Source: Minisyncoccota bacterium (GTDB taxonomy: Bacteria; Patescibacteriota; Minisyncoccia; UBA6257; GWB1-50-10). From it: a stretch of DNA of 42,771 bases. Positions 13,295 to 33,963 of the stretch are shown here, one piece after another. The stretch lies in the NCBI GenBank assembly GCA_040880505.1, contig JBBDIH010000034.1, positions 6,442-49,212 on the forward strand, written 5' to 3'. Position 1 is the first letter of the stretch; every line of letters begins with the position of its first letter. The position numbers were made by a program, and so were the translations under genes. A model generated the notes under the pieces. It was not told the DNA's origin, did not search any database, and was given only the letters and a program-made list of their open reading frames with translations.

Positions 13295-13307
13295 AAAATT
13301 ATTTTAA

Positions 13308-24393: not shown

Positions 24394-25455
24394 ATGAATA
24401 GTATTTCCTTCATATTGCCTTGTAGAAATGAAAAAGAATCACTTCGAACGGTTATAAAAGATATTAAAAAAACATGCGATAAAGCAGGTGTAGATGATTA
24501 TGAGATTATTGTATCTGATTCTTCATGGGATGGATCTGATAAAATCGCTAAAGATGAAGGAGTTGTCCTAATAAAACATGACACAGAAGGATATGGCTTT
24601 GCAATTCGAGAAGGTGCAAACCACGCAACAAAAGACATTGTCATATTTGCTGACCCTGATGGAACATATGATTTTACAGAGTTTCCAAAATTAACAAAAC
24701 TATTAGAAAATAATGACATTGTTTTTGGAAATAGATTAAAAGGTGCAATAGAAAAAGGTGCAATGCCATTAACACACAGATTTATAGGGACACCTATTAT
24801 TAATACATTTTTAAAACTCTTATTTGGTATAGGTATAACTGATAGTCAGTCAGGTTTTAGAGCTTTAAAAACAAAAACATTTCACAATCTTAATCTCGCT
24901 ACAAACGGTATGGAATTTGCTAGCGAAATGATTATTCAGGCCTCTAAACAAAATTTATCTATGACTGAAATTCCGATATCTTATAGACAACGAGGTGGTG
25001 ACTCTAAATTAAGACCTTACAGAGATGGTTTTGCTCATATTAAATATATTATTTTAAAAACACATTTTTATCTGTATGCAATCCTAGGAGGAATTATAAC
25101 TTTACTTGGTTTGATTAGTATTATATTTGGAGATAATTTTGAAGGATTTTTAAATTCAGCAACTATGCAGATAATATTCCCCATATTAGGTATTCAGATA
25201 ATCTTTTTGGGATTATTTTCTAAAACATATTTATACACAAAATTTAATCAAGAAAATAAGTTTTTAAATAAATTTTATTCAATTTTCCAATTGAAACATG
25301 CATTTATTCTTGGGTTGTTGTTGCTTGGCGTACCTCTTATTATGAAAATATTAGGCTTTGGTGATATTTACTTTGAATTATTACTTGTATCTGTAATAAC
25401 AGGTATTCAAGTAATATTTAACTCTATTTATCTTTCTCAACTATCAATAGAATAG
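24394..25455 (+). CDS. Glycosyltransferase family 2 (polyprenol-phosphate glycosyltransferase/DPM1-like) with C-terminal TMs
   Basis: PCRNE, IIVSD..S.DG, G.G.A...G, DPDG, GNR, DSQSGFRA, FASEM, R.G.SKL. Confidence 0.9.
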   Translation: MNSISFILPCRNEKESLRTVIKDIKKTCDKAGVDDYEIIVSDSSWDGSDKIAKDEGVVLIKHDTEGYGFAIREGANHATKDIVIFADPDGTYDFTEFPKLTKLLENNDIVFGNRLKGAIEKGAMPLTHRFIGTPIINTFLKLLFGIGITDSQSGFRALKTKTFHNLNLATNGMEFASEMIIQASKQNLSMTEIPISYRQRGGDSKLRPYRDGFAHIKYIILKTHFYLYAILGGIITLLGLISIIFGDNFEGFLNSATMQIIFPILGIQIIFLGLFSKTYLYTKFNQENKFLNKFYSIFQLKHAFILGLLLLGVPLIMKILGFGDIYFELLLVSVITGIQVIFNSIYLSQLSIE

Positions 25456-25506
25456 TTATCCCCAGAAATTTATGCCTCCCGAGGGCATAAATTTCTGGGG
25501 ATAACT
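25454..25506. repeat. REP-like long palindrome (23-bp arms, 7-nt loop)
   Basis: agttatccccagaaatttatgcc-tcccgag-ggcataaatttctggggataact; core 25468-25492 is identical to 9755-9779. Confidence 0.9.
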
Positions 25507-25523
25507 TTTATTCAGATGCTATT

Positions 25524-26621
25524 ATGAAAAAAATTCTAGTTATAAATAAATACTGTCCGCTTCATCCAAAAGCAGGAGGAGCCGAAGTGAGGTTAAAAGA
25601 TATTTTTTCTCGCATTGGAAAAAATCACAAAGTATATCTTTTAACTGCTATGTTCCCAGGAGCAAAAAGAAAAGAGACTTATGAAAATATTAATATTATA
25701 AGATTGGGAAAAACTGATTCAGAAAATACTATAAGAATTCATTTTCTTATAGTTTTATTAATTAGAAAATATCTAAAAAAAATAAAACCAGATGTTTTAT
25801 ATGAAGATATAAGTGTACTTCCATTTTTTACTCCAATTCTCTGCCCTAGTCAGGAAAAAGTAGTTATTATTCATCATTTAAATAAAAGGGATTTTTTCAA
25901 ATCACAAAGACTTATCTTTGCTCTTATTGGTTATTTAGCAGAAATATCTTTTTTATTCACTTACAAAAAACAAAAGGTGATTGTGGTTAGTGAATGGATG
26001 AAAGATGAATTAGAAAAGAAAAATTTTAAAGATGTAACAAAAATACTGAACGGAACAAGTAAAAAATTATTTAGTGATAAAAAATACAACAAAAACCCTA
26101 CTGTTCTTTTTTTAGGAAGATTAGAAAAAAGAAAAGGGATAGATCTTTTTCTAAAAACTTATCCATTGGTGATAAAAAGGGTTTCAAATGTTAATTATAT
26201 TGTTGCCGGTGAAGAATTTAAATTTAAAAGAAAAGGATTTTCTTTAGAGAAGCTAAAAGAAAAATATAAAAATATACAGTTTCTAGGTTACGTTACTGAA
26301 GAAAAGAAAAAGCAACTACTAGAAAGTTGCTGGCTATACGTAGCTCCATCAATAATTGAAGGTTACGGAATTAGCGTGCTCGAAGCAAATTCTACCGGAA
26401 CATTTGTTATAGGCAATAAAGTAAAAGGATTAAACGAATCCATAAAAGATAAAAAAACTGGTCAATTAATAGATTGTTATAATACTAAAATATTCGCAAA
26501 AACCATTATAAACTGGTTAGATAAAAATAAATTAAAAGAAAAGGAGGAGAACTGTAAAAAATGGGCTAAAAAACATGACTGGGATAAAGCTGCATTAGAA
26601 ACAGAAAAACTAATAATCTAA
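25524..26621 (+). CDS. Glycosyltransferase family 4 (GT-B)
   Basis: HP.AGGAE, VLFLGRLEKRKG, FLGYV, PSIIEGYGISVLEA. Confidence 0.92.
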   Translation: MKKILVINKYCPLHPKAGGAEVRLKDIFSRIGKNHKVYLLTAMFPGAKRKETYENINIIRLGKTDSENTIRIHFLIVLLIRKYLKKIKPDVLYEDISVLPFFTPILCPSQEKVVIIHHLNKRDFFKSQRLIFALIGYLAEISFLFTYKKQKVIVVSEWMKDELEKKNFKDVTKILNGTSKKLFSDKKYNKNPTVLFLGRLEKRKGIDLFLKTYPLVIKRVSNVNYIVAGEEFKFKRKGFSLEKLKEKYKNIQFLGYVTEEKKKQLLESCWLYVAPSIIEGYGISVLEANSTGTFVIGNKVKGLNESIKDKKTGQLIDCYNTKIFAKTIINWLDKNKLKEKEENCKKWAKKHDWDKAALETEKLII

Positions 26622-26626
26622 TAAAT

Positions 26627-27343
26627 ATGGAGATAGAAAATTTACTTAAAAAATATATAAACAAAACACCTAAAATAAGTGAGAAAGATTACTTATTTAA
26701 AAAATATAAAAGAATTAAACAAGAATTAAGTAAAGACTATAAAATATTAATTACTGGTTCTTATAGTAGGGGCACTTCTCTGCCTCCTTTTAACGATATA
26801 GATTTATATTTAATATTTTCTGATGATCCAAGTTTTATAGAAGAAGAAAGGCCTAGCTCCTTATTAAAAAAGGTAGAAGAAAAAGTACCTAATATTCGGT
26901 ACCTAATAGCAGGAGGCGAATTCTTATTCGCAAAAACAAATCATCCTTTAAAATCTTTAAAGGATGAGTATAAGAATAACAATGTAGAATTTCTAGGATA
27001 TGTTAGCGAAAAAAAGAAAAAAGAATTATTTGAATCTTGTTGGTTGTATGTAGTTCCATCAAGAATTGAAGGGTATGGAATTAGCGTTATTGAAGCAAAT
27101 GCTAGTGGAACGTTTGTTATTGGAAATAATGTGCAGGGACTAAAAGAATCAATAAAGCATAATAAAACCGGAATACTTGTTGATTGTACTGATATCGAAA
27201 AATTATCTAACACTATTATTAATTGGTTAAATAAAGAAAAATTAAAAAAAAAGGAAAATAATTGTAAAGAATGGGCTAAAAAACATGATTGGAATGTATC
27301 AGCAAAAGAAACAGAAAATACATTAATCAACCCAATAGGTTAA
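26627..27343 (+). CDS. Chimeric ORF: CD-NTase/SMODS-like nucleotidyltransferase N-terminal fragment fused to a GT4 C-terminal half (possibly pseudogenic)
   Basis: aa 44-60 GSYSRGTSLPPFNDIDL is a GSY.R.T...P..D.D nucleotidyltransferase motif; from about aa 87 the sequence is a paralog of the preceding GT4 (50/67 identical over FLGYV...DC). Confidence 0.7.
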   Translation: MEIENLLKKYINKTPKISEKDYLFKKYKRIKQELSKDYKILITGSYSRGTSLPPFNDIDLYLIFSDDPSFIEEERPSSLLKKVEEKVPNIRYLIAGGEFLFAKTNHPLKSLKDEYKNNNVEFLGYVSEKKKKELFESCWLYVVPSRIEGYGISVIEANASGTFVIGNNVQGLKESIKHNKTGILVDCTDIEKLSNTIINWLNKEKLKKKENNCKEWAKKHDWNVSAKETENTLINPIG

Positions 27344-28189
27344 ATCTCTACCTAATAAACTAGAAAGTTTTTTTACGTCCTCTTTGAAATAATCTTTAAG
27401 CTCATTTTCTAAATCTTCATTTAATGGTTCTTTTTTAACTTTCTTTATATTCCATTTAAAAAGTTTGTCGGAAAAGTTTATATATTTATGTAAAAATATA
27501 GCTAAAAGAGAAACTAACCTATATTTAAATGTATATCTTGAATTATAAACAGGAAAATTAGTTCTACCGTCATATTTTAAATTTAAAAAATTTAAAACTT
27601 CCTTATAAACTTTTTGAGTATCCTTAATAAAATCATCAAAAACTATAACTTTCACTTTATCTTTTTCTACAAAATGATAAAGATGTTCTAGTTGTTTCCC
27701 TAATTTTGATACCTCTCCATGATATAAAAGCTTTGGAGAGCTACATATTAAAGGTACATTTTTTCCTTTTTTACGATCATCTCTAAGCCTCCAAGCTTTT
27801 TCTGGTGATTTTGCCGTTTCATCAAAAAAGTAACGAGACAAATAAAACCTAGAATGAAATATATCTATGGGGTTTCTAACCATAACGATAAATTTAGCCT
27901 CTGGATTAAAAGCTAAGATTCTTTGGATAGCATCTTCAGAAAAAAGATACCAAGTTGATCCTTCTCCAACAGCTTTATAATTTTCTGCTCCTTGAAAAAT
28001 ATTTAAATAATCTTCTTCTTTAGTTATTTTTCTAAAATTTCCAAGATCATGAGAAAAATAATGAGGCTCTTTAGGAATAGAAAAAAATATATCAGGATGA
28101 TCTCTTAAATAAATAGATAAAGATGTAGTTCCTGTTCTTGGAGCGCCTACAATAAAAAAATTAGGTTTTTTTATATTTAATTTATTCAT
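27323..28189 (-). CDS. Sulfotransferase family protein
   Basis: PAPS 5'-binding loop IVGAPRTGTTSL, KEPHYF, GEGST.YL, K.IV..RNP...S. Confidence 0.9.
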   Translation of the reverse strand: MNKLNIKKPNFFIVGAPRTGTTSLSIYLRDHPDIFFSIPKEPHYFSHDLGNFRKITKEEDYLNIFQGAENYKAVGEGSTWYLFSEDAIQRILAFNPEAKFIVMVRNPIDIFHSRFYLSRYFFDETAKSPEKAWRLRDDRKKGKNVPLICSSPKLLYHGEVSKLGKQLEHLYHFVEKDKVKVIVFDDFIKDTQKVYKEVLNFLNLKYDGRTNFPVYNSRYTFKYRLVSLLAIFLHKYINFSDKLFKWNIKKVKKEPLNEDLENELKDYFKEDVKKLSSLLGRDLTYWVD

Positions 28190-29209
28190 GTAATAGAAAT
28201 TAACTCTAATTACTTATATTATATAGTATAAGATGAAAATAGCAGTTCTACATAGCTTTTTAGATCAGCTTGGTGGTGCAGAAAAAGTAGCTTTGACGCT
28301 AGCAAAAGAACTTAAAGCTGATCTTATAACAACAAACTTTAATCAAAAAGATATAAGCAATTTTGGGTTTGAGTCTATAAATATAAAATCTTTAGGTAAT
28401 GTTTCTAAAAAATGGCCTAAAAGGCAGCAACAAGCGTTAAATTTATTTAAAAAAAATAAATTTAATAATTATGATCTCTTAATAATAACAAGCGAATGGT
28501 CAATATCTTCAGTAAACAAAAAACAACCTGTGATTTGGTATGTAAATTCTGTACCAGAAATATCAAATAATTATTCAGAAAAACTATTAAAAGAAATAAA
28601 TAAATATACGAATAAAATTAACTTTATAATAGCTAATTCTAATAAAACGCAAAGACAAATAACTAGATACTTTAAAAAAGATTCTATTTTAATTTATTCA
28701 TGTAATAGAAATTAACTCTAATTACTTATATTATATAGTATAAGATGAAAATAGCAGTTCTACATAGCTTTTTAGATCAGCTTGGTGGTGCAGAAAAAGT
28801 AGCTTTGACGCTAGCAAAAGAACTTAAAGCTGATCTTATAACAACAAACTTTAATCAAAAAGATATAAGCAATTTTGGGTTTGAGTCTATAAATATAAAA
28901 TCTTTAGGTAATGTTTCTAAAAAATGGCCTAAAAGGCAGCAACAAGCGTTAAATTTATTTAAAAAAAATAAATTTAATAATTATGATCTCTTAATAATAA
29001 CAAGCGAATGGTCAATATCTTCAGTAAACAAAAAACAACCTGTGATTTGGTATGTAAATTCTGTACCAGAAATATCAAATAATTATTCAGAAAAACTATT
29101 AAAAGAAATAAATAAATATACGAATAAAATTAACTTTATAATAGCTAATTCTAATAAAACGCAAAGACAAATAACTAGATACTTTAAAAAAGATTCTATT
29201 TTAATTTAT
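28176..29209 (+). repeat. Tandem direct duplication, period 512 bp
   Basis: 28176-28697 repeats at 28688-29209; the 10-mer TTTAATTTAT occurs at 28176, 28688 and 29200; encoded peptides are identical over 156 aa. Confidence 0.92.
28233..28715 (+). pseudogene. Truncated duplicate of the GT4 gene at 28745 (N-terminal domain only)
   Basis: Identical to the first 156 aa of the 28745..29761 protein, then SCNRN-stop read from the duplicated intergenic DNA. Confidence 0.85.
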
Positions 29210-29761
29210 CCTCCTGTAGAAATTGATAAATTTCAGTTTAAAAAATTTGGTGACTACTGGCTTTCAGTAAATCGTCTTGATTATTACAAAAGAATAGATC
29301 TTCAAATTAAAACTTTTTCAGAAATACCTAATGAAAAACTTATGATAGTAGGGTCGCCTAAGTCAGATATTAATACAATGAATTACTTTTCGAAAATAAA
29401 ACAATTATCTCCTAAAAATATTACATTTCTAGGAGAAAAAAACGGAAAAGAGCTTATTAATCTATATGCAAATTGCAAAGGATTCATTGCTACAGCAAAA
29501 AATGAATTTTTTGGCATAACTCCTGTAGAAGCGATGGCATCAGGAAAACCAGTTGTTGCTGTTAATGAAGGAGGTTACAAAGAAACCGTAGATATAAAAA
29601 CAGGCATCTTAACAGATCCTACAAGCCATTCTTTAGCAAAAGCAATTAAAGAAGTTTCTCTTAATTTAGAAAATTATAAAGAAAATTGCATAGATAAATC
29701 TAGGAATTTTTCCAAGGAAAAGTTTATGGAACATATGAATAAAATAATTAAAAAATTTTAA
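28745..29761 (+). CDS. Glycosyltransferase family 4 (GT-B)
   Basis: GGAEKV, IANS, IYPPVE, LSVNRL...KR, FLG, EFFGITPVEAMASGKPV. Confidence 0.92.
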   Translation: MKIAVLHSFLDQLGGAEKVALTLAKELKADLITTNFNQKDISNFGFESINIKSLGNVSKKWPKRQQQALNLFKKNKFNNYDLLIITSEWSISSVNKKQPVIWYVNSVPEISNNYSEKLLKEINKYTNKINFIIANSNKTQRQITRYFKKDSILIYPPVEIDKFQFKKFGDYWLSVNRLDYYKRIDLQIKTFSEIPNEKLMIVGSPKSDINTMNYFSKIKQLSPKNITFLGEKNGKELINLYANCKGFIATAKNEFFGITPVEAMASGKPVVAVNEGGYKETVDIKTGILTDPTSHSLAKAIKEVSLNLENYKENCIDKSRNFSKEKFMEHMNKIIKKF

Positions 29762-30906
29762 TGAAGCTACAACCTTTAAAATTTAAAAGAAAAAAAGAAA
29801 ACCTAGATTTCTTACTTTCTATTATTAAATATTTCTTTAAAACAGGAGAAAAGCCTGTGTTTAATAAAAATATTTTAAAAGACCAAAGTTTTTTCTCTTT
29901 GACTAAAAATAATTCAACTATAGGTTATGCTTATCTTGCTTTAAAAGAATATGATGAATTTAAAAATACTTGGCTATATAATGAAATGTTTAATTATTTT
30001 GAAAAACTACAAAAACCACAGGATGAGAAGAATTTACACATGTTAAAAATAATTCAAAATATTGCAAAAAAAAATGAAATGCCTATATTAATTTTAAAAG
30101 AACACAATTATAAAATAAAAACAAACTACAAAAAAGGAACAAGATATTCAAGTGATTTAGATATACTTATTAAAAAATCTGATCTATTTAAATTAAATAA
30201 CATACTAATAAGTAATAATTTTGGCTTAAGATATGTTGATTTTAATTTTGAAAATACAATCTTATTTTATAGAGATGGCAATATAAAATTTAATAAAAAA
30301 GGAAAAGGAAAAAATCTTGCAAGAAATGAGCAAATAATTAAAGGAGTAAATGAAGGGTATAGAAATTTTGAGTATTCACTTATAAAAAACAATATATGTG
30401 AGTCATTATTAGAAGTTCATTTTTATCCTAATAACTACAATTATCCAAAAAGTCACCTTAATTTTGATGACTTGTGGGAAAAATCAATATTTGATAATTC
30501 TATAGGATTGATAAAACCTGAAATTAGAATTATTTATGATGCTGAACATTTTTTTACACACCTAAAATATAATAAAACTTTTGATAATGCTCACAATACT
30601 TTTAACTGCCACTTAAAAAGATTAGTGGACTTAGCTTATAATATAAGCTTAGAAGAAGAAATAGATTGGGATAAGTTAATAAAAATAGCAAAGAAAAATA
30701 ATTTATCAACACAAGCTTTTAGCTATCTAAGGTTAGGAAAAGAGTTATTAAACATAAATATACCCGAGAAAATTCTATTACAACTAAAAGATAATGCTGA
30801 AGAAACACAATTGTTTATAATTAACTTAATAGATAAATCAAAGTTATTTCAAGATAAAAGAGATTTTTGGACTTATCTTTATACTAAATTATTTTTATAC
30901 ACATAA
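29761..30906 (+). CDS. Nucleotidyltransferase family protein (NTP_transf_5-like)
   Basis: ILKE...Y..GTRYSSDLDILI, LEVHF, H...H, L.DL.......IDWD.L...A helical C-terminus. Confidence 0.7.
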   Translation: MKLQPLKFKRKKENLDFLLSIIKYFFKTGEKPVFNKNILKDQSFFSLTKNNSTIGYAYLALKEYDEFKNTWLYNEMFNYFEKLQKPQDEKNLHMLKIIQNIAKKNEMPILILKEHNYKIKTNYKKGTRYSSDLDILIKKSDLFKLNNILISNNFGLRYVDFNFENTILFYRDGNIKFNKKGKGKNLARNEQIIKGVNEGYRNFEYSLIKNNICESLLEVHFYPNNYNYPKSHLNFDDLWEKSIFDNSIGLIKPEIRIIYDAEHFFTHLKYNKTFDNAHNTFNCHLKRLVDLAYNISLEEEIDWDKLIKIAKKNNLSTQAFSYLRLGKELLNINIPEKILLQLKDNAEETQLFIINLIDKSKLFQDKRDFWTYLYTKLFLYT

Positions 30907-30908
30907 CC

Positions 30909-32483
30909 ATGAACAATAAAAATTCAAAAAAATACATAATAGAAACAATAAAAAGCTTCTTTGGATATAAATCTAAAAAGCTAAAACCTATAGAAAGACA
31001 AAATGTTTTTTTAAATTTAGTTAAAGAAACATCTACAGCAGGGATTATATATACCGCTCTTAAAGATAGTAAGGAAATAGATAAAAAAATATTAAATAAA
31101 TTAAAAAAATATTTTTCTTTAATGAAAGAGTCAGATCAAGATTTAAAAGAAGCTTTTAATGTAATTAAAAATATACCTATACCAAAAACTTTAATTAAAG
31201 AAAATACATATAAATTCTTTAATGAATATAAACAAGGAACAAGGTATAGCTGTGATATAGATATTATTGTAGACCCAGAACATATACATATATTAGATAA
31301 ATATATGCGAAAAAATAATTTCTATCTTGATGGTATTGATATAGAAAAAAATCAAAAGATATTAAAATTAGCAGCAGAAGCAAATAGAAATATAGAAAAA
31401 TATAAAGAATTAAAAGAAGAGTTAAGTTGGATTATAGAAGAAGCCAATACTTTTTCAATAAAAAATAAAAATATAAAAAAAGAGATAGATATACTAAAAA
31501 ACAACCTGGAAAAAAGCAAAAAGGAATTAAATCAAATAGAACAACTTTATAAAAAAATACTATCCCTTAATAATTTCTACATAACAAAAGAAGAAAAGGA
31601 AATAAGAAAAGAATTAGAAAATATAGAGAAAAATATAATATCTAATAAAGAAACTAAAGAAGATATTGTGTCTAAAAAAGAAATTGTATTAAAAGAAGCT
31701 AATTTATTAAAAATACTGAAAGGAAGACATAATAAAATTATAAAAGAAACTATATTTGATATAAAAAACAGAATAGAGATATTAAGTGATCTAGTGAATC
31801 ATTCCGGTGAAATAAAAGAGATAGAAAATTATTCAAAATTTATCTTAAAGGATTTAAGCAAAAGCCTAAATAGAGCTACTAAAATAAAAGAGATATTAAA
31901 TCAAAAAGAAAAAGTTTTTCATTATAATTATAAAAACACTTCTTTTGTTGATATACATTTTGAAATTTTTCCAGAATACCTCCCTTTTAGAATAAAAAAA
32001 CTAGACTTAAATAAAGAAAAAATAGATGACTACCTCTGCTCTCTAAAATTAGAAGACTCGATAATATTAGATGCATGTCATTTTGTTTTTAATCTTTCTA
32101 AGCATAATAAACCAGAACATTTTCAAGGTTTTTTAAAATATCTTATTGACCTACCATATAAGATAAAAAATAAAAAAGAATTAGAGTGGAATTACATATT
32201 AGAAAAATCAAAAGAAACGAATAGTGGTTCTCAAGTATTGTTCTACTTTAAAATAGCTAAAGATAATCTTGGTGTCCCAATACCTGAAAAAATAATAAAA
32301 GAATTAAAAAAGTCTAGTTCAAAAATTCAAAATATTATACTATCGTTAATTCCAGATTATGCTCTGCTTTTTAATGAAGTGTCTTTACCTATAAAGATAT
32401 ATAGTAAAATGTACTTGGAAAAAAATATGATCCATAAATACACTGAAAAAATGCATTATCTTTATAATAAAATTTTTAGATGA
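30909..32483 (+). CDS. Nucleotidyltransferase family protein (NTP_transf_5-like) with long coiled-coil insertion
   Basis: IKE...Y.QGTRYSCDIDIIV, then a long E/K/I/L heptad region, then VDIHF, H, YLIDL...LEWNYI; paralog of the upstream gene. Confidence 0.65.
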   Translation: MNNKNSKKYIIETIKSFFGYKSKKLKPIERQNVFLNLVKETSTAGIIYTALKDSKEIDKKILNKLKKYFSLMKESDQDLKEAFNVIKNIPIPKTLIKENTYKFFNEYKQGTRYSCDIDIIVDPEHIHILDKYMRKNNFYLDGIDIEKNQKILKLAAEANRNIEKYKELKEELSWIIEEANTFSIKNKNIKKEIDILKNNLEKSKKELNQIEQLYKKILSLNNFYITKEEKEIRKELENIEKNIISNKETKEDIVSKKEIVLKEANLLKILKGRHNKIIKETIFDIKNRIEILSDLVNHSGEIKEIENYSKFILKDLSKSLNRATKIKEILNQKEKVFHYNYKNTSFVDIHFEIFPEYLPFRIKKLDLNKEKIDDYLCSLKLEDSIILDACHFVFNLSKHNKPEHFQGFLKYLIDLPYKIKNKKELEWNYILEKSKETNSGSQVLFYFKIAKDNLGVPIPEKIIKELKKSSSKIQNIILSLIPDYALLFNEVSLPIKIYSKMYLEKNMIHKYTEKMHYLYNKIFR

Positions 32484-33244
32484 AAAACTTATCTTATTAT
32501 TATAATTTAATAAAAGAATTAAGCTGGGCCGATTTTAAACTAAAATATTACGGTTCTGTATTAGGATTATTTTGGAGTTTTTTAAAACCATTTTTAATGC
32601 TTCTTATTTTATATATGGTTTTTAATAGCTTTTTAAAGTCAGGTATAAATAACTATCATATATTTCTTCTTTTAGGTATTACTATATGGAACTTTTTTGC
32701 TGACGGCACAAAAGCAAGCCTTATGAGTATTACAAGTAAAAAAAGTATACTTCAAAAAATAAATCTCTCTCCTTTTATTGTGGTTATAAGTACTATTATT
32801 CATTCATTTTGGACATTTATTATTACATTAATAATATTTTTTATACTTTTCTTTTATTTTGGTCTGTCACTTTCAATTAGCGTATTATTATTACCGGTCT
32901 TTATTATTCTTTTAGTATTATTAATACTTGGAACATCTTTTCTGGTTGCTCCTCTACATATGAAATTTAAAGACTTTGAACATATATGGGATGTATTTCT
33001 TCAAATGCTTTTCTGGGCAACTCCTATCGTATATCAATATACTGCTGTGCCAGATAAATATTCAGATATATATTTATTAAATCCTGTAACCCGACTTATT
33101 GTTGATGCCCGAAATTCAATCATTTATGGATTCGTACCAGAAGTAAAACAACTTTTAATAACTACTGTTATTATACTTAGTATCTTTATTATTGGATTAT
33201 TGGTTTTTAAAAAATATAGTAGAAAATTAGTAGAAGAATTATGA
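32480..33244 (+). CDS. wzm: ABC transporter permease, Wzm/RfbA type
   Basis: DFKLKYYGSVLG.FWS.L.P, G...WNFF, D..HIW....Q..FWATPIVY, LNP. Confidence 0.9.
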   Translation: MKNLSYYYNLIKELSWADFKLKYYGSVLGLFWSFLKPFLMLLILYMVFNSFLKSGINNYHIFLLLGITIWNFFADGTKASLMSITSKKSILQKINLSPFIVVISTIIHSFWTFIITLIIFFILFFYFGLSLSISVLLLPVFIILLVLLILGTSFLVAPLHMKFKDFEHIWDVFLQMLFWATPIVYQYTAVPDKYSDIYLLNPVTRLIVDARNSIIYGFVPEVKQLLITTVIILSIFIIGLLVFKKYSRKLVEEL

Positions 33245-33963
33245 TCAAAATTAATAATTTAAGTAAAAAATATAATATACCTCACGAAAGAAAAAACACT
33301 TTCTTTGAAATGATGCTTGGTTACATAAAAAGCCAAATAGATTGGGAAGAATTTTATGCCTTAAAAGATATTTCTTTTGAAATAAAAAAAGGAGAAATTA
33401 TTGGCTTAATTGGTAAAAATGGAAGCGGAAAAACAACTTTATTAAAAATAATATCAGGCATTATCCCTCCGACAGAGGGAAAGGTTGAAATTGATGGTAA
33501 AGTTGCTCCTTTCCTTAGTTTAGGAATAGGATTTCACCATGAACTAACAGCAAAAGAAAATCTATATATATATGGCGCTGTTTTAGGATTAACTCGAAAA
33601 GAAGTAAACGAAAAATTATCACACATATTGGATTTTGCTGGTGTAAAAAGATTTGAGGATACGAAATTAAAACACTACTCCTCTGGTATGCAAGCTAGAC
33701 TAGCTTTCTCAATGATGATTCAAACCGACCCTGAAATATTAATAGTTGATGAAATATTTGCAGTTGGCGATAAAGATTTTCGGCCAAAATGTATTTCTGT
33801 TTTCCAAGAATATAAAGAAAAAAATAAAACTGTTCTTTTTTCTAGTCATAGCTTACGTACAATAAAAAACTTTTGCGACAGAGTTATTCTTCTTGAGGAC
33901 GGTAAAATAACTAAAATAGGTAATCCAGAAGATGTAGTAAATTATTATGCAAACAAAAAATAA
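33241..33963 (+). CDS. wzt: ABC transporter ATP-binding protein, Wzt/RfbB type (no C-terminal glycan-binding domain)
   Basis: ALKDISF, GKNGSGKTT, GF..ELT.KEN, YSSGM.ARL.FS, VDE.FAVGD.DF, SH; 240 aa. Confidence 0.92.
   Translation: MIKINNLSKKYNIPHERKNTFFEMMLGYIKSQIDWEEFYALKDISFEIKKGEIIGLIGKNGSGKTTLLKIISGIIPPTEGKVEIDGKVAPFLSLGIGFHHELTAKENLYIYGAVLGLTRKEVNEKLSHILDFAGVKRFEDTKLKHYSSGMQARLAFSMMIQTDPEILIVDEIFAVGDKDFRPKCISVFQEYKEKNKTVLFSSHSLRTIKNFCDRVILLEDGKITKIGNPEDVVNYYANKK

What the first reader, a model, noticed from the sequence alone, without database searches (positions are those of the whole stretch)
26627..27343. CD-NTase/SMODS-like fragment fused in-frame to half a GT4 glycosyltransferase
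Seen: aa 1-86 carry ITGSYSRGTSLPPFNDIDLYLIF...PSSLLKKV, the N-terminal catalytic signature of cGAS/DncV-like nucleotidyltransferases. The downstream strand with the third catalytic acid is missing. From about VPNIRYLIAG onward the ORF is a roughly 75%-identical paralog of the neighbouring GT4 C-terminal domain, lacking its acceptor domain and GRL..RKG motif. Inference: an in-frame deletion scar of a CBASS-like defence gene embedded in a glycan locus, a new domain fusion, or a mis-assembly.
Basis: partly seen in the sequence, partly recalled or inferred. Interest (0 to 1): 0.62.

Follow-up and report, generated by a model that had tools for sequence, protein, structure and literature searches.

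The report
Chimeric nucleotidyltransferase-head / half-glycosyltransferase ORF
A 238-residue gene in the sugar-coat locus of an ultra-small (CPR-type) bacterium joins the first ~82 residues of a cGAS/CBASS-like nucleotidyltransferase to the back half of a glycosyltransferase; it is real sequence, found nowhere else, and is most likely a young recombination by-product, not a new enzyme.

Summary
ORF 26627-27343 (+) carries a pol-beta nucleotidyltransferase head (aa 1 to about 82-87, GS...DxD) joined in frame to the C-terminal half of a GT4 glycosyltransferase (from aa about 78-83). The head is an orphan in sequence searches. It does align in register with the N-termini of genuine SMODS/CD-NTase proteins from related CPR genomes and with CBASS cyclase profiles. 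The third catalytic acid and the whole rest of the NTase are missing. The GT4 part lacks the acceptor domain and the first beta-alpha unit with the GRLExRKG motif. It is 61% identical in protein (75% in DNA, not 75% in protein) to the upstream GT4.

An independent Logan assembly of SRR27977663 reproduces the junction exactly, so a mis-assembly is unlikely. No other genome or protein searched has this fusion, a second GT4 of this type, or an NTase at this site. The slot behind the conserved GT2-GT4 pair is a gene-turnover hot spot: relatives hold PMT_2, GT8, GT2 or IS200-like transposase genes there, and a perfect 512-bp tandem duplication lies 850 bp away.

Both parts look undecayed, so the chimera is either young or under selection. 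I favour a young illegitimate-recombination remnant (about 0.55). A "CBASS scar" is plausible but not demonstrable.

The parts
26627..26872 (+). NTase head: N-terminal helices, beta1, GS(44-45), R48, T50, D57-I-D59 and the following helix (PSSLLKKV). Equivalent to about the first third of a SMODS/CD-NTase domain.
   Evidence: Pfam NTP_transf_2 29.6 bits (cut-off 21) and SMODS 23-25.5 bits (cut-off 26.5). PADLOC cyclase models up to 33 bits. NCBIfam CBASS_cyclase_b 30 bits. In-register pairwise matches to CPR SMODS proteins. Alignment A5 invariants. No relative found by sequence search in 1.84e9 or 5.8e9 proteins.
26858..26890 (+). Junction zone (aa 78-88, LLKKVEEKVPN). This helix segment fits both the SMODS helix after beta2 and the end of GT4 helix alpha1.
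   Evidence: The GT4a family HMM alignment starts at aa 83 with its envelope at aa 78. SMODS alignment A5 keeps S77 and L80 invariant and runs to about aa 87. A Logan contig crosses this zone with 100% identity.
26873..27343 (+). GT4 C-terminal half (family HMM positions 217-365). It carries the E-x7-E motif (E148...E156) and lacks beta1 and GRLExRKG. Its last 21 nt overlap the convergent sulfotransferase gene.
   Evidence: Pfam Glycos_transf_1 111.9 bits. Family HMM 231.9 bits. 61% aa identity to the neighbour. 38 of 38 family-invariant columns kept. dN/dS 0.17-0.20. Foldseek hits are GT-B C domains.
25524..26621 (+). Intact GT4a gene (365 aa), the paralogue of the fusion's C-half. Its stop codon lies 5 nt before the fusion's ATG.
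   Evidence: Orthologues are always single-copy in 14 syntenic loci.
24394..25455 (+). GT2 gene (353 aa with a membrane tail). It is the conserved partner of GT4a and marks the fixed left edge of the variable slot.
27323..28189 (-). Sulfotransferase gene, convergent with the fusion. It marks the right edge of the slot.
   Evidence: Pfam Sulfotransfer_3 and Sulfotransfer_1. Its orthologue follows a PMT_2 gene in L015/L016.

Best explanation
The ORF is a real chimeric gene made by illegitimate recombination in the variable slot behind the conserved GT2-GT4a pair of a Wzm/Wzt-type glycan locus. The 5' end of an NTase gene (start codon plus about 82 codons, SMODS/CD-NTase-like) became joined in frame, inside a short helix-coding stretch that resembles both parents, to codon ~216 of a GT4a-type gene.

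Two routes give this product. (a) C-terminal displacement by homology-facilitated illegitimate recombination: incoming DNA carrying GT4a' followed by an NTase gene is anchored by homology upstream and joined illegitimately at codon ~216 of the resident GT4a, which pushes the resident 3' half downstream. (b) Deletion between an NTase gene and a second GT4a paralogue. I slightly prefer (a), because no relative has two GT4a genes.

The ORF is probably co-transcribed with the operon. Its product cannot work as an NTase, because the third carboxylate and the C-terminal lobe are missing. It cannot work as a glycosyltransferase on its own, because the acceptor domain and the diphosphate-binding R/K motif are missing. 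The lack of any decay means the event is young.

Shown: the anatomy, the uniqueness, the reality of the junction and the variability of the slot. Inferred: the recombination route, the lack of function and the age.
For: - Anatomy.
- Uniqueness: the fusion is the only protein of its kind among 5.8e9 clusters and 1.84e9 representatives. None of 40 related genomes matches aa 1-80.
- Synteny: the GT2-GT4a pair is conserved in 14 loci with a single GT4a. The next slot holds PMT_2, GT8, GT2, an IS200-like Y1 transposase, or nothing.
- No reciprocal product: there is no second GT4a N-domain in the MAG.
- Structural instability in the same locus: a perfect 512-bp tandem duplication bounded by a 10-bp microhomology makes another partial-gene ORF 850 bp away.
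- Junction is real.
- Age of the two C-halves: they are as far from each other (61%) as from orthologues in other genera (57-64%) and form a polytomy. This fits one copy being foreign, or an old split.
- Precedent: displaced 3' gene ends left by homology-facilitated illegitimate recombination are described for T6SS and Rhs loci (PMC5361080).
- Structure: AlphaFold gives no confident fold for aa 1-77 (pLDDT below 50).
Against: - No decay is visible. The head frame is open (2e-4 by chance) and its GS/DxD motifs are intact. The C-half keeps 38 of 38 invariant family residues, while the intact neighbour has lost 2. Its terminal branch (0.32) is shorter than the neighbour's (0.46). dN/dS is 0.17-0.20. 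All of this would also be expected of a protein under selection.
- No donor, ancestor or sister strain is available, so neither the route nor the age could be tested.
- The in-frame join has only a one-in-three prior if it is unselected.
Confidence: 0.55

Rival explanations
1. Functional new architecture. The protein is a stand-alone donor-binding half-glycosyltransferase. The NTase-derived head (strand KILITG plus helices) replaces the missing first beta-alpha unit or acts as an adaptor, and the protein works with a separately encoded acceptor domain, for example that of GT4a, in the way split GT-B enzymes such as Alg13/Alg14 do.
For: - All 38 family-invariant residues of the C-half are kept, including E-x7-E.
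- dN/dS is 0.17-0.20 and the terminal branch is no longer than that of the intact paralogue.
- The ORF is open in 24% GC DNA.
- The tight 5-nt spacing places it in the operon.
- GT-B C domains can exist alone: Foldseek hits include the 196-aa PGS C domain 2bfw and the 166-aa protein 2f9f.
Against: - It is found in one genome only.
- The central strand beta1 and the R/K diphosphate-binding motif are missing.
- The AlphaFold model is poor: mean pLDDT 53, head below 50.
- No partner gene is evident.
- The conservation signals are explained equally well by a recent truncation of a gene that was functional until then.
Confidence: 0.22
2. Scar of a CBASS defence operon. A CD-NTase plus effector once sat between two full GT4 genes, and an in-frame deletion removed everything from NTase codon ~83 to GT4b codon ~215.
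For: - The head's best profile hits are CBASS cyclases, and it aligns in register with CPR SMODS proteins.
- The same genome carries a genuine SMODS+AGS_C gene with a membrane-protein partner on contig C161, so this lineage does acquire such systems.
Against: - SMODS is below Pfam's cut-off: 23-25.5 bits against 26.5.
- There is no effector or any other defence gene at the site.
- The NTase start sits 5 nt after the GT4a stop, as operon members do here, whereas the CPR SMODS genes seen have a membrane-protein gene next to them.
- None of 14 syntenic loci or 40 related genomes has two GT4a genes or an NTase here.
- SMODS genes are rare in the order: 5 of 201 genomes.
Confidence: 0.15
3. Assembly or binning artefact: two unrelated molecules joined at a shared low-complexity k-mer.
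For: - The genome is a fragmented MAG: 315 contigs and 1.36 Mb against 0.5-0.9 Mb in relatives, with 4.2% contamination.
- The junction lies in A-rich sequence.
- A perfect tandem repeat lies nearby.
Against: - An independent Logan contig (k=31 graph) from SRR27977663 is 100% identical over 2,484 bp across the junction. It breaks only 30 nt into the 512-bp repeat, exactly where a true repeat would break it. A k-mer-mediated chimera would branch at the junction.
- Both flanks belong to the same conserved locus.
- The frame continues across the join.
Confidence: 0.05

Closest known systems
SMODS / CD-NTase nucleotidyltransferases of CBASS (Pfam PF18144; PADLOC 'Cyclase'; NCBIfam CBASS_cyclase_b), in particular the CPR versions with an AGS_C sensor domain
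   Same: The N-terminal helices, GS-x2-R-x-T, 11-residue spacing to DxD, and the following PS..L..V helix align in register with full-length members (31-36% over 58-67 aa). These are the best profile hits in PADLOC and NCBIfam. The top PDB sequence hits are OAS2 and CdnD/CdnC-type enzymes, but only weakly (E 0.04-1.4).
   Different: Only about the first third of the domain is present. There is no third catalytic acid strand, no C-terminal lobe and no effector neighbour. It scores below Pfam's SMODS cut-off. No relative above about 35-40% identity exists anywhere searched.
GT4 retaining glycosyltransferases (Pfam Glycos_transf_1; structural neighbours BshA, PimA, MshA, HepE, P. abyssi glycogen synthase C domain)
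   Same: The C-terminal Rossmann half has E-x7-E and all family-invariant residues. It belongs to the same clade as the upstream GT4a (98/95 support).
   Different: It lacks the N-terminal acceptor domain and the first beta-alpha unit with GRLExRKG. It is 238 aa long, against 358-384 aa for typical full-length family members.
C-terminal displacement and 'orphan' 3' fragments in Rhs, CDI and T6SS effector loci, explained by homology-facilitated illegitimate recombination (PMC5361080 and references therein)
   Same: A conserved 5' region is followed by a new 3' end, and the old 3' end is kept just downstream as a partial gene. It occurs in a locus with frequent horizontal replacement.
   Different: This is a glycan-synthesis locus, not a toxin locus. 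The displaced half is fused in frame to a foreign gene head and so has a start codon. The route is inferred, not shown.
Split GT-B glycosyltransferases such as Alg13/Alg14 (from general knowledge, not tested here) and stand-alone GT-B C domains (2bfw, 2f9f)
   Same: A GT-B C-terminal domain exists as a separate polypeptide.
   Different: Those proteins contain the complete C domain, including beta1 and the diphosphate-binding residues. Here that unit is replaced by unrelated sequence, and no partner is known.

Membership tests
CD-NTase / SMODS (CBASS cyclase) | Pol-beta NTase motif: h-G-S, then 9-13 residues, then [DE]-h-[DE]-h, in the N-terminal lobe | tested here: met
   G44-S45 ... D57-I-D59. 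NTP_transf_2 scores 29.6 bits against a cut-off of 21. G44, S45, R48, T50, D57 and D59 are invariant with four CPR SMODS proteins.
CD-NTase / SMODS (CBASS cyclase) | Third catalytic carboxylate on the next beta-strand (VD[VI]VP in CPR homologues) | tested here: not met
   Homologues carry it about 50-60 residues after DxD. The fusion switches to GT4 sequence at aa 78-83.
CD-NTase / SMODS (CBASS cyclase) | Score above the curated family threshold | tested here: not met
   SMODS 23.1-25.5 bits against 26.5 and 24.1 bits. CBASS_cyclase_b 30 bits against 200.
CD-NTase / SMODS (CBASS cyclase) | C-terminal helical lobe completing the cGAS/OAS-like fold | tested here: not met
   Residues 83-238 are a GT4 C domain.
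CD-NTase / SMODS (CBASS cyclase) | Adjacent effector gene (operon context) | tested here: not met
   The neighbours are GT4a and a sulfotransferase. PADLOC finds no defence protein in the two NTP_transf_5 genes scanned.
GT4 glycosyltransferase (Glycos_transf_1) | C-terminal Rossmann domain with E-x7-E, above the Pfam threshold | tested here: met
   111.9 bits against 26.4. E148 and E156 are invariant.
GT4 glycosyltransferase (Glycos_transf_1) | N-terminal acceptor-binding Rossmann domain (Glyco_transf_4) | tested here: not met
   No Glyco_transf_4 hit. The family HMM aligns only positions 217-365.
GT4 glycosyltransferase (Glycos_transf_1) | First beta-alpha unit of the C domain with the GRLExRKG motif (R/K contacting the donor diphosphate, from general knowledge of GT4 structures) | tested here: not met
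   The motif is present in all 15 full-length relatives and absent from the fusion.
Minimal nucleotidyltransferase (MNT) antitoxin of HEPN-MNT pairs | Small (~100-140 aa) stand-alone NTase with an adjacent HEPN gene | tested here: inconclusive
   NTP_transf_2 is the only family above its cut-off, and HI0073 is a weak PDB hit (E 0.42). However, there is no HEPN neighbour, and the 40-residue N-terminal helices align with SMODS and cyclase profiles from position 1. The neighbours have Pfam matches only to glycosyltransferase and sulfotransferase families; HEPN models were not scanned for specifically.

The most novel reading that the evidence does not exclude
The chimera is a selected, working protein: a half-glycosyltransferase whose missing first beta-alpha unit has been replaced by the nucleotide-binding head of a CD-NTase. 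This would create a new nucleotide- or nucleotide-sugar-binding module that acts with the neighbouring GT4a or regulates the glycan pathway. It would be an example of new protein architecture arising from gene fragments in a reduced CPR genome.
Probability: 0.12. Interest if true: 0.65.

Novelty: new member of a known kind. Interest (0 to 1): 0.25.

Why it matters
If it is a remnant, it is a clean natural example of how surface-glycan loci in ultra-small CPR bacteria are remodelled by illegitimate recombination. It leaves in-frame chimeric ORFs that automatic annotation would report as "nucleotidyltransferase/glycosyltransferase" proteins. It also shows that SMODS-type NTase genes, rare in this order (5 of 201 genomes), have passed through this lineage more than once. 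It is a caution against reading defence functions from motif-level hits. Only if the protein proved functional would it be of wider interest, as a new domain architecture born from fragments.

Tried and rejected
An independent Logan contig served as a partial substitute.
2. A full-length relative of the head. phmmer against 1.84e9 representatives returned only the ORF itself plus three spurious eukaryotic mucin/SEA-repeat proteins. The word-index search of aa 1-88 returned only the ORF itself.
3. GT4 homology extending upstream of aa 83 ('DIDLYLIF..SFIEEERPSSLLKK' against 'TVLFLGRLEKRKGIDLFLK'). Rejected: the family HMM alignment starts sharply at aa 83 and BLASTP agrees. The tblastn 'residues 20-236' match for L018 is not supported by BLASTP against that contig's GT4a protein (P0005), which aligns only from aa 83.
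4. The head as a retained start of the PMT_2 gene that fills this slot in L015. No similarity.
5. The head derived from the downstream NTP_transf_5 genes. No match in the own-genome search.
6. A reciprocal recombination product or a second GT4a N-domain elsewhere in the MAG. None found.
7. Deciding which C-half is resident from N-domain and C-domain identities and a tree. Unresolved polytomy with comparable distances.
8. Structure prediction to see whether the head completes the Rossmann sheet.
9. Shine-Dalgarno evidence for translation. This genome shows no SD motif upstream of its genes, so its absence here says nothing.

Full report
**What is there.** ORF 26627..27343 (+) encodes 238 residues. 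It starts 5 nt after the stop of a 365-aa GT4 gene (25524..26621, here called GT4a). Its last 21 nt overlap the end of a convergent sulfotransferase gene (27323..28189, minus strand). Pfam splits the protein in two. Residues 79-219 match Glycos_transf_1 at 111.9 bits. Residues 26-88 match NTP_transf_2 at 29.6 bits (cut-off 21), with SMODS second at 23.1 bits, or 25.5 bits for the head alone (cut-off 26.5), aligned to profile positions 1-104 of 164.

**The head (aa 1 to about 82-87).**
- PADLOC's CBASS cyclase models hit it 10-15 times, always in register with the profile N-terminus (best PDLC00823, 33 bits, E 1e-8).
- In NCBIfam the best NTase model is CBASS_cyclase_b (30 bits, far below its full-length cut-off of 200), ahead of archaeal CCA-adding enzyme at 26 bits.
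- Against PDB sequences the best, weak hits are OAS2 and CdnD/CdnC-type enzymes (E 0.04-1.4), then HI0073, pol beta and CCA enzymes.
- At the level of single-sequence searches the head is an orphan. phmmer against 1.84 billion representatives found only the ORF itself and three spurious mucin-repeat proteins. The word-index search of aa 1-88 found only the ORF itself.
- A SMODS profile search of 201 genomes of the same order found the domain in only 5, including this one.
- The head aligns in register with the N-termini of those genuine SMODS proteins: 31% over 67 aa with L037 (E 7e-10, head 3-67 against 13-79) and 36% over 58 aa with L035 (E 6e-7).
- In a five-sequence alignment G44, S45, R48, T50, D57, D59, S77 and L80 are invariant.
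- The full-length proteins continue to a VD[VI]VP strand carrying the third acid. The fusion does not.

The head is therefore best described as the first third of a divergent SMODS/CD-NTase-like enzyme. That is a resemblance, not membership. The curated threshold, the third acid, the C-terminal lobe and the operon context all fail.

**The GT4 half.** BLASTP to GT4a starts at V83 and gives 61% identity over 152 residues. The DNA is 75-76% identical. An HMM built from 15 full-length family members aligns aa 83-233 to positions 217-365 of 367, with the envelope starting at aa 78 and nothing upstream. The acceptor domain, strand beta1 and the GRLExRKG motif are absent. I had suspected that GT4 homology might reach back to 'DLYLIF', and this test rejects that. 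The SMODS-like helix (PSSLLKKVEEKV) and the start of GT4 homology overlap at aa 78-87. The join therefore lies at about nt 26858-26890, in a stretch compatible with both parents.

However, a Logan contig from SRR27977663 (L034, 2,484 bp) encodes exactly this protein and is 100% identical to window 25722-28205. Logan contigs come from a k=31 graph and break at unresolved branches. This one crosses the junction and ends 30 nt into the 512-bp repeat that starts at 28176, which is where a true repeat should end it. A k-mer-mediated chimera would have produced a branch at the junction. Both flanks also belong to one conserved locus. I put the artefact reading at about 5%.

**Context.** The genome is a fragmented MAG of 1.36 Mb in 315 contigs, 88.8% complete. 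Its relatives have genomes of 0.5-0.9 Mb, and related loci are titled Patescibacteria or Paceibacterota. The locus reads GT2, GT4a, the fusion, sulfotransferase (minus strand), GT4c, two NTP_transf_5 genes, two genes with conserved orthologues in the related loci (32480-33963; an earlier unchecked note of this scan calls the locus a Wzm/Wzt operon) and a large gene at 33947. The GT2-GT4a pair is conserved in about 14 related loci, always with one GT4a. What follows varies:
- a 483-aa PMT_2 gene in the closest syntenic locus, L015/L016, which is otherwise collinear (GT2, GT4a, PMT_2, sulfotransferase, GT4c, NTP_transf_5), and in L021;
- a GT8 gene (L024, L028; L029 and L030 carry an uncharacterised ~465-aa ORF in the same position);
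- a GT2 gene or an IS200-like Y1 transposase (L020, L023);
- nothing (L017).

No locus, none of 40 related genomes and no protein in the large databases has the fusion, a second GT4a, or an NTase at this position. The MAG holds no second GT4a N-domain and no other copy of the head. About 850 bp downstream, a 512-bp unit (28176-28687) is repeated perfectly (28688-29199) between 10-bp TTTAATTTAT microhomologies. This produces a truncated 160-aa copy of GT4c in front of the intact gene. The locus is visibly prone to rearrangements that create partial-gene ORFs.

**Age and selection.**
- In a tree of C-halves, the fusion and GT4a fall in one well-supported clade of seven (98/95) but as a polytomy. 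Their terminal branches are 0.32 and 0.46.
- The two copies are as far from each other (61%) as from orthologues in other genera (57-64%).
- The fusion keeps all 38 columns that are invariant in the other members, while GT4a has lost two.
- dN/dS against GT4a or L019 is 0.17-0.20, with dS saturated.
- The head frame is open in only 2e-4 of shuffles, and the other frames carry 9 and 14 stops.
- GC content is native: 24% in the head, 28.5% in the C-half and 28.9% in the window.

Both parts were therefore shaped by purifying selection, and no decay has accumulated since the join. That fits either a young remnant or a protein under selection. The data cannot separate the two, because no close relative exists.

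**Mechanism.** I favour a young by-product of illegitimate recombination (0.55). Two routes give the same product. In the displacement route, incoming DNA carrying GT4a' plus the start of an adjacent NTase gene is anchored by homology upstream and joined illegitimately at codon ~216 of the resident GT4a. The resident 3' half is then left downstream, now headed by the NTase start. This is the logic proposed for orphan 3' ends in T6SS and Rhs loci (PMC5361080). It needs only the single-GT4a architecture that all relatives show, and it implies a resident arrangement of GT4a followed directly by the sulfotransferase. That needs an arrangement not seen anywhere. Both routes need an NTase gene immediately downstream of a GT4a-type gene in some genome, which is also unobserved.

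The product lacks what either enzyme needs. As an NTase it has two of three carboxylates and no C-terminal lobe. As a GT4 it has no acceptor domain, no central beta1 and no R/K motif. AlphaFold gave a poor model (mean pLDDT 53, aa 1-77 below 50). Foldseek recognises only GT-B C domains (BshA, PimA, HepE, the PGS domain 2bfw, the 166-aa 2f9f) at a TM-score of about 0.48.

**Rivals.** A functional half-glycosyltransferase with a borrowed head (0.22) is kept alive by the undecayed state and by the existence of stand-alone GT-B C domains. A CBASS scar in the strict sense (0.15) is compatible with the head's affinities and with the genuine SMODS+AGS_C gene, plus membrane-protein partner, on contig C161 of the same MAG. 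It has no support from context. An artefact stands at 0.05.

**Verdict.** This is a unique but probably inert chimera, a new instance of a known kind of event (gene-fragment fusion at a recombination hot spot). Interest is low to moderate.

Noticed in passing
window 28176-29209: A perfect 512-bp tandem duplication (28176-28687 and 28688-29199) bounded by the 10-bp microhomology TTTAATTTAT. It duplicates the sulfotransferase start, the divergent intergenic region and the first ~150 codons of GT4c. The result is a truncated 160-aa ORF (28233..28715) ahead of the intact 338-aa gene (28745..29761). The independent Logan contig ends exactly 30 nt (k-1) into the repeat.
   Followed up: partly
window 25457-25503 (also near 13300; contigs C212, C221, C234, C192, C275 and others): A GC-rich 20-bp-stem palindrome (TATCCCCAGAAATTTATGCC...GGCATAAATTTCTGGGGATA) sits between GT2 and GT4a. 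It is a dispersed REP-like element with at least 25 copies in the MAG. IS200-like Y1 transposase genes sit at the equivalent glycan-locus slot in two relatives (L020:3089-3844, L023:2103-2813).
   Followed up: partly
L002 (G000 contig C161), 403-2227 minus strand: A CBASS-like two-gene unit in the same MAG: a 175-aa membrane protein followed by a 436-aa SMODS+AGS_C protein, next to a type I restriction S-subunit fragment. A similar membrane protein plus SMODS pair occurs in a same-order genome (L035).
   Followed up: partly
L042 (G000 contig C206), 255-2753 minus strand: A third weak SMODS-like NTase (311 aa, 20.8 bits), flanked by a 327-aa protein and a 210-aa protein with hydrophobic segments. 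Possibly another nucleotide-signalling defence unit.
   Followed up: no
window 29761-32483: Two tandem NTP_transf_5 (PF14907) genes. The second (524 aa) has a long insertion. Relatives carry two or three such genes after GT4c. An earlier first-stage note (e1-5227903) already covers them. They are unrelated to the fusion's head.
   Followed up: no
whole genome G000: The MAG is 1.36 Mb in 315 contigs, whereas 40 relatives of the same family or order are mostly 0.5-0.9 Mb. With 4.2% estimated contamination, the bin may hold more than one strain or some foreign contigs.
   Followed up: no
window 25524-26621: The intact GT4a has changed two residues that are invariant in the other family members compared (F to L, and R to I in PSRIEGYG). 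The truncated copy keeps both.
   Followed up: partly
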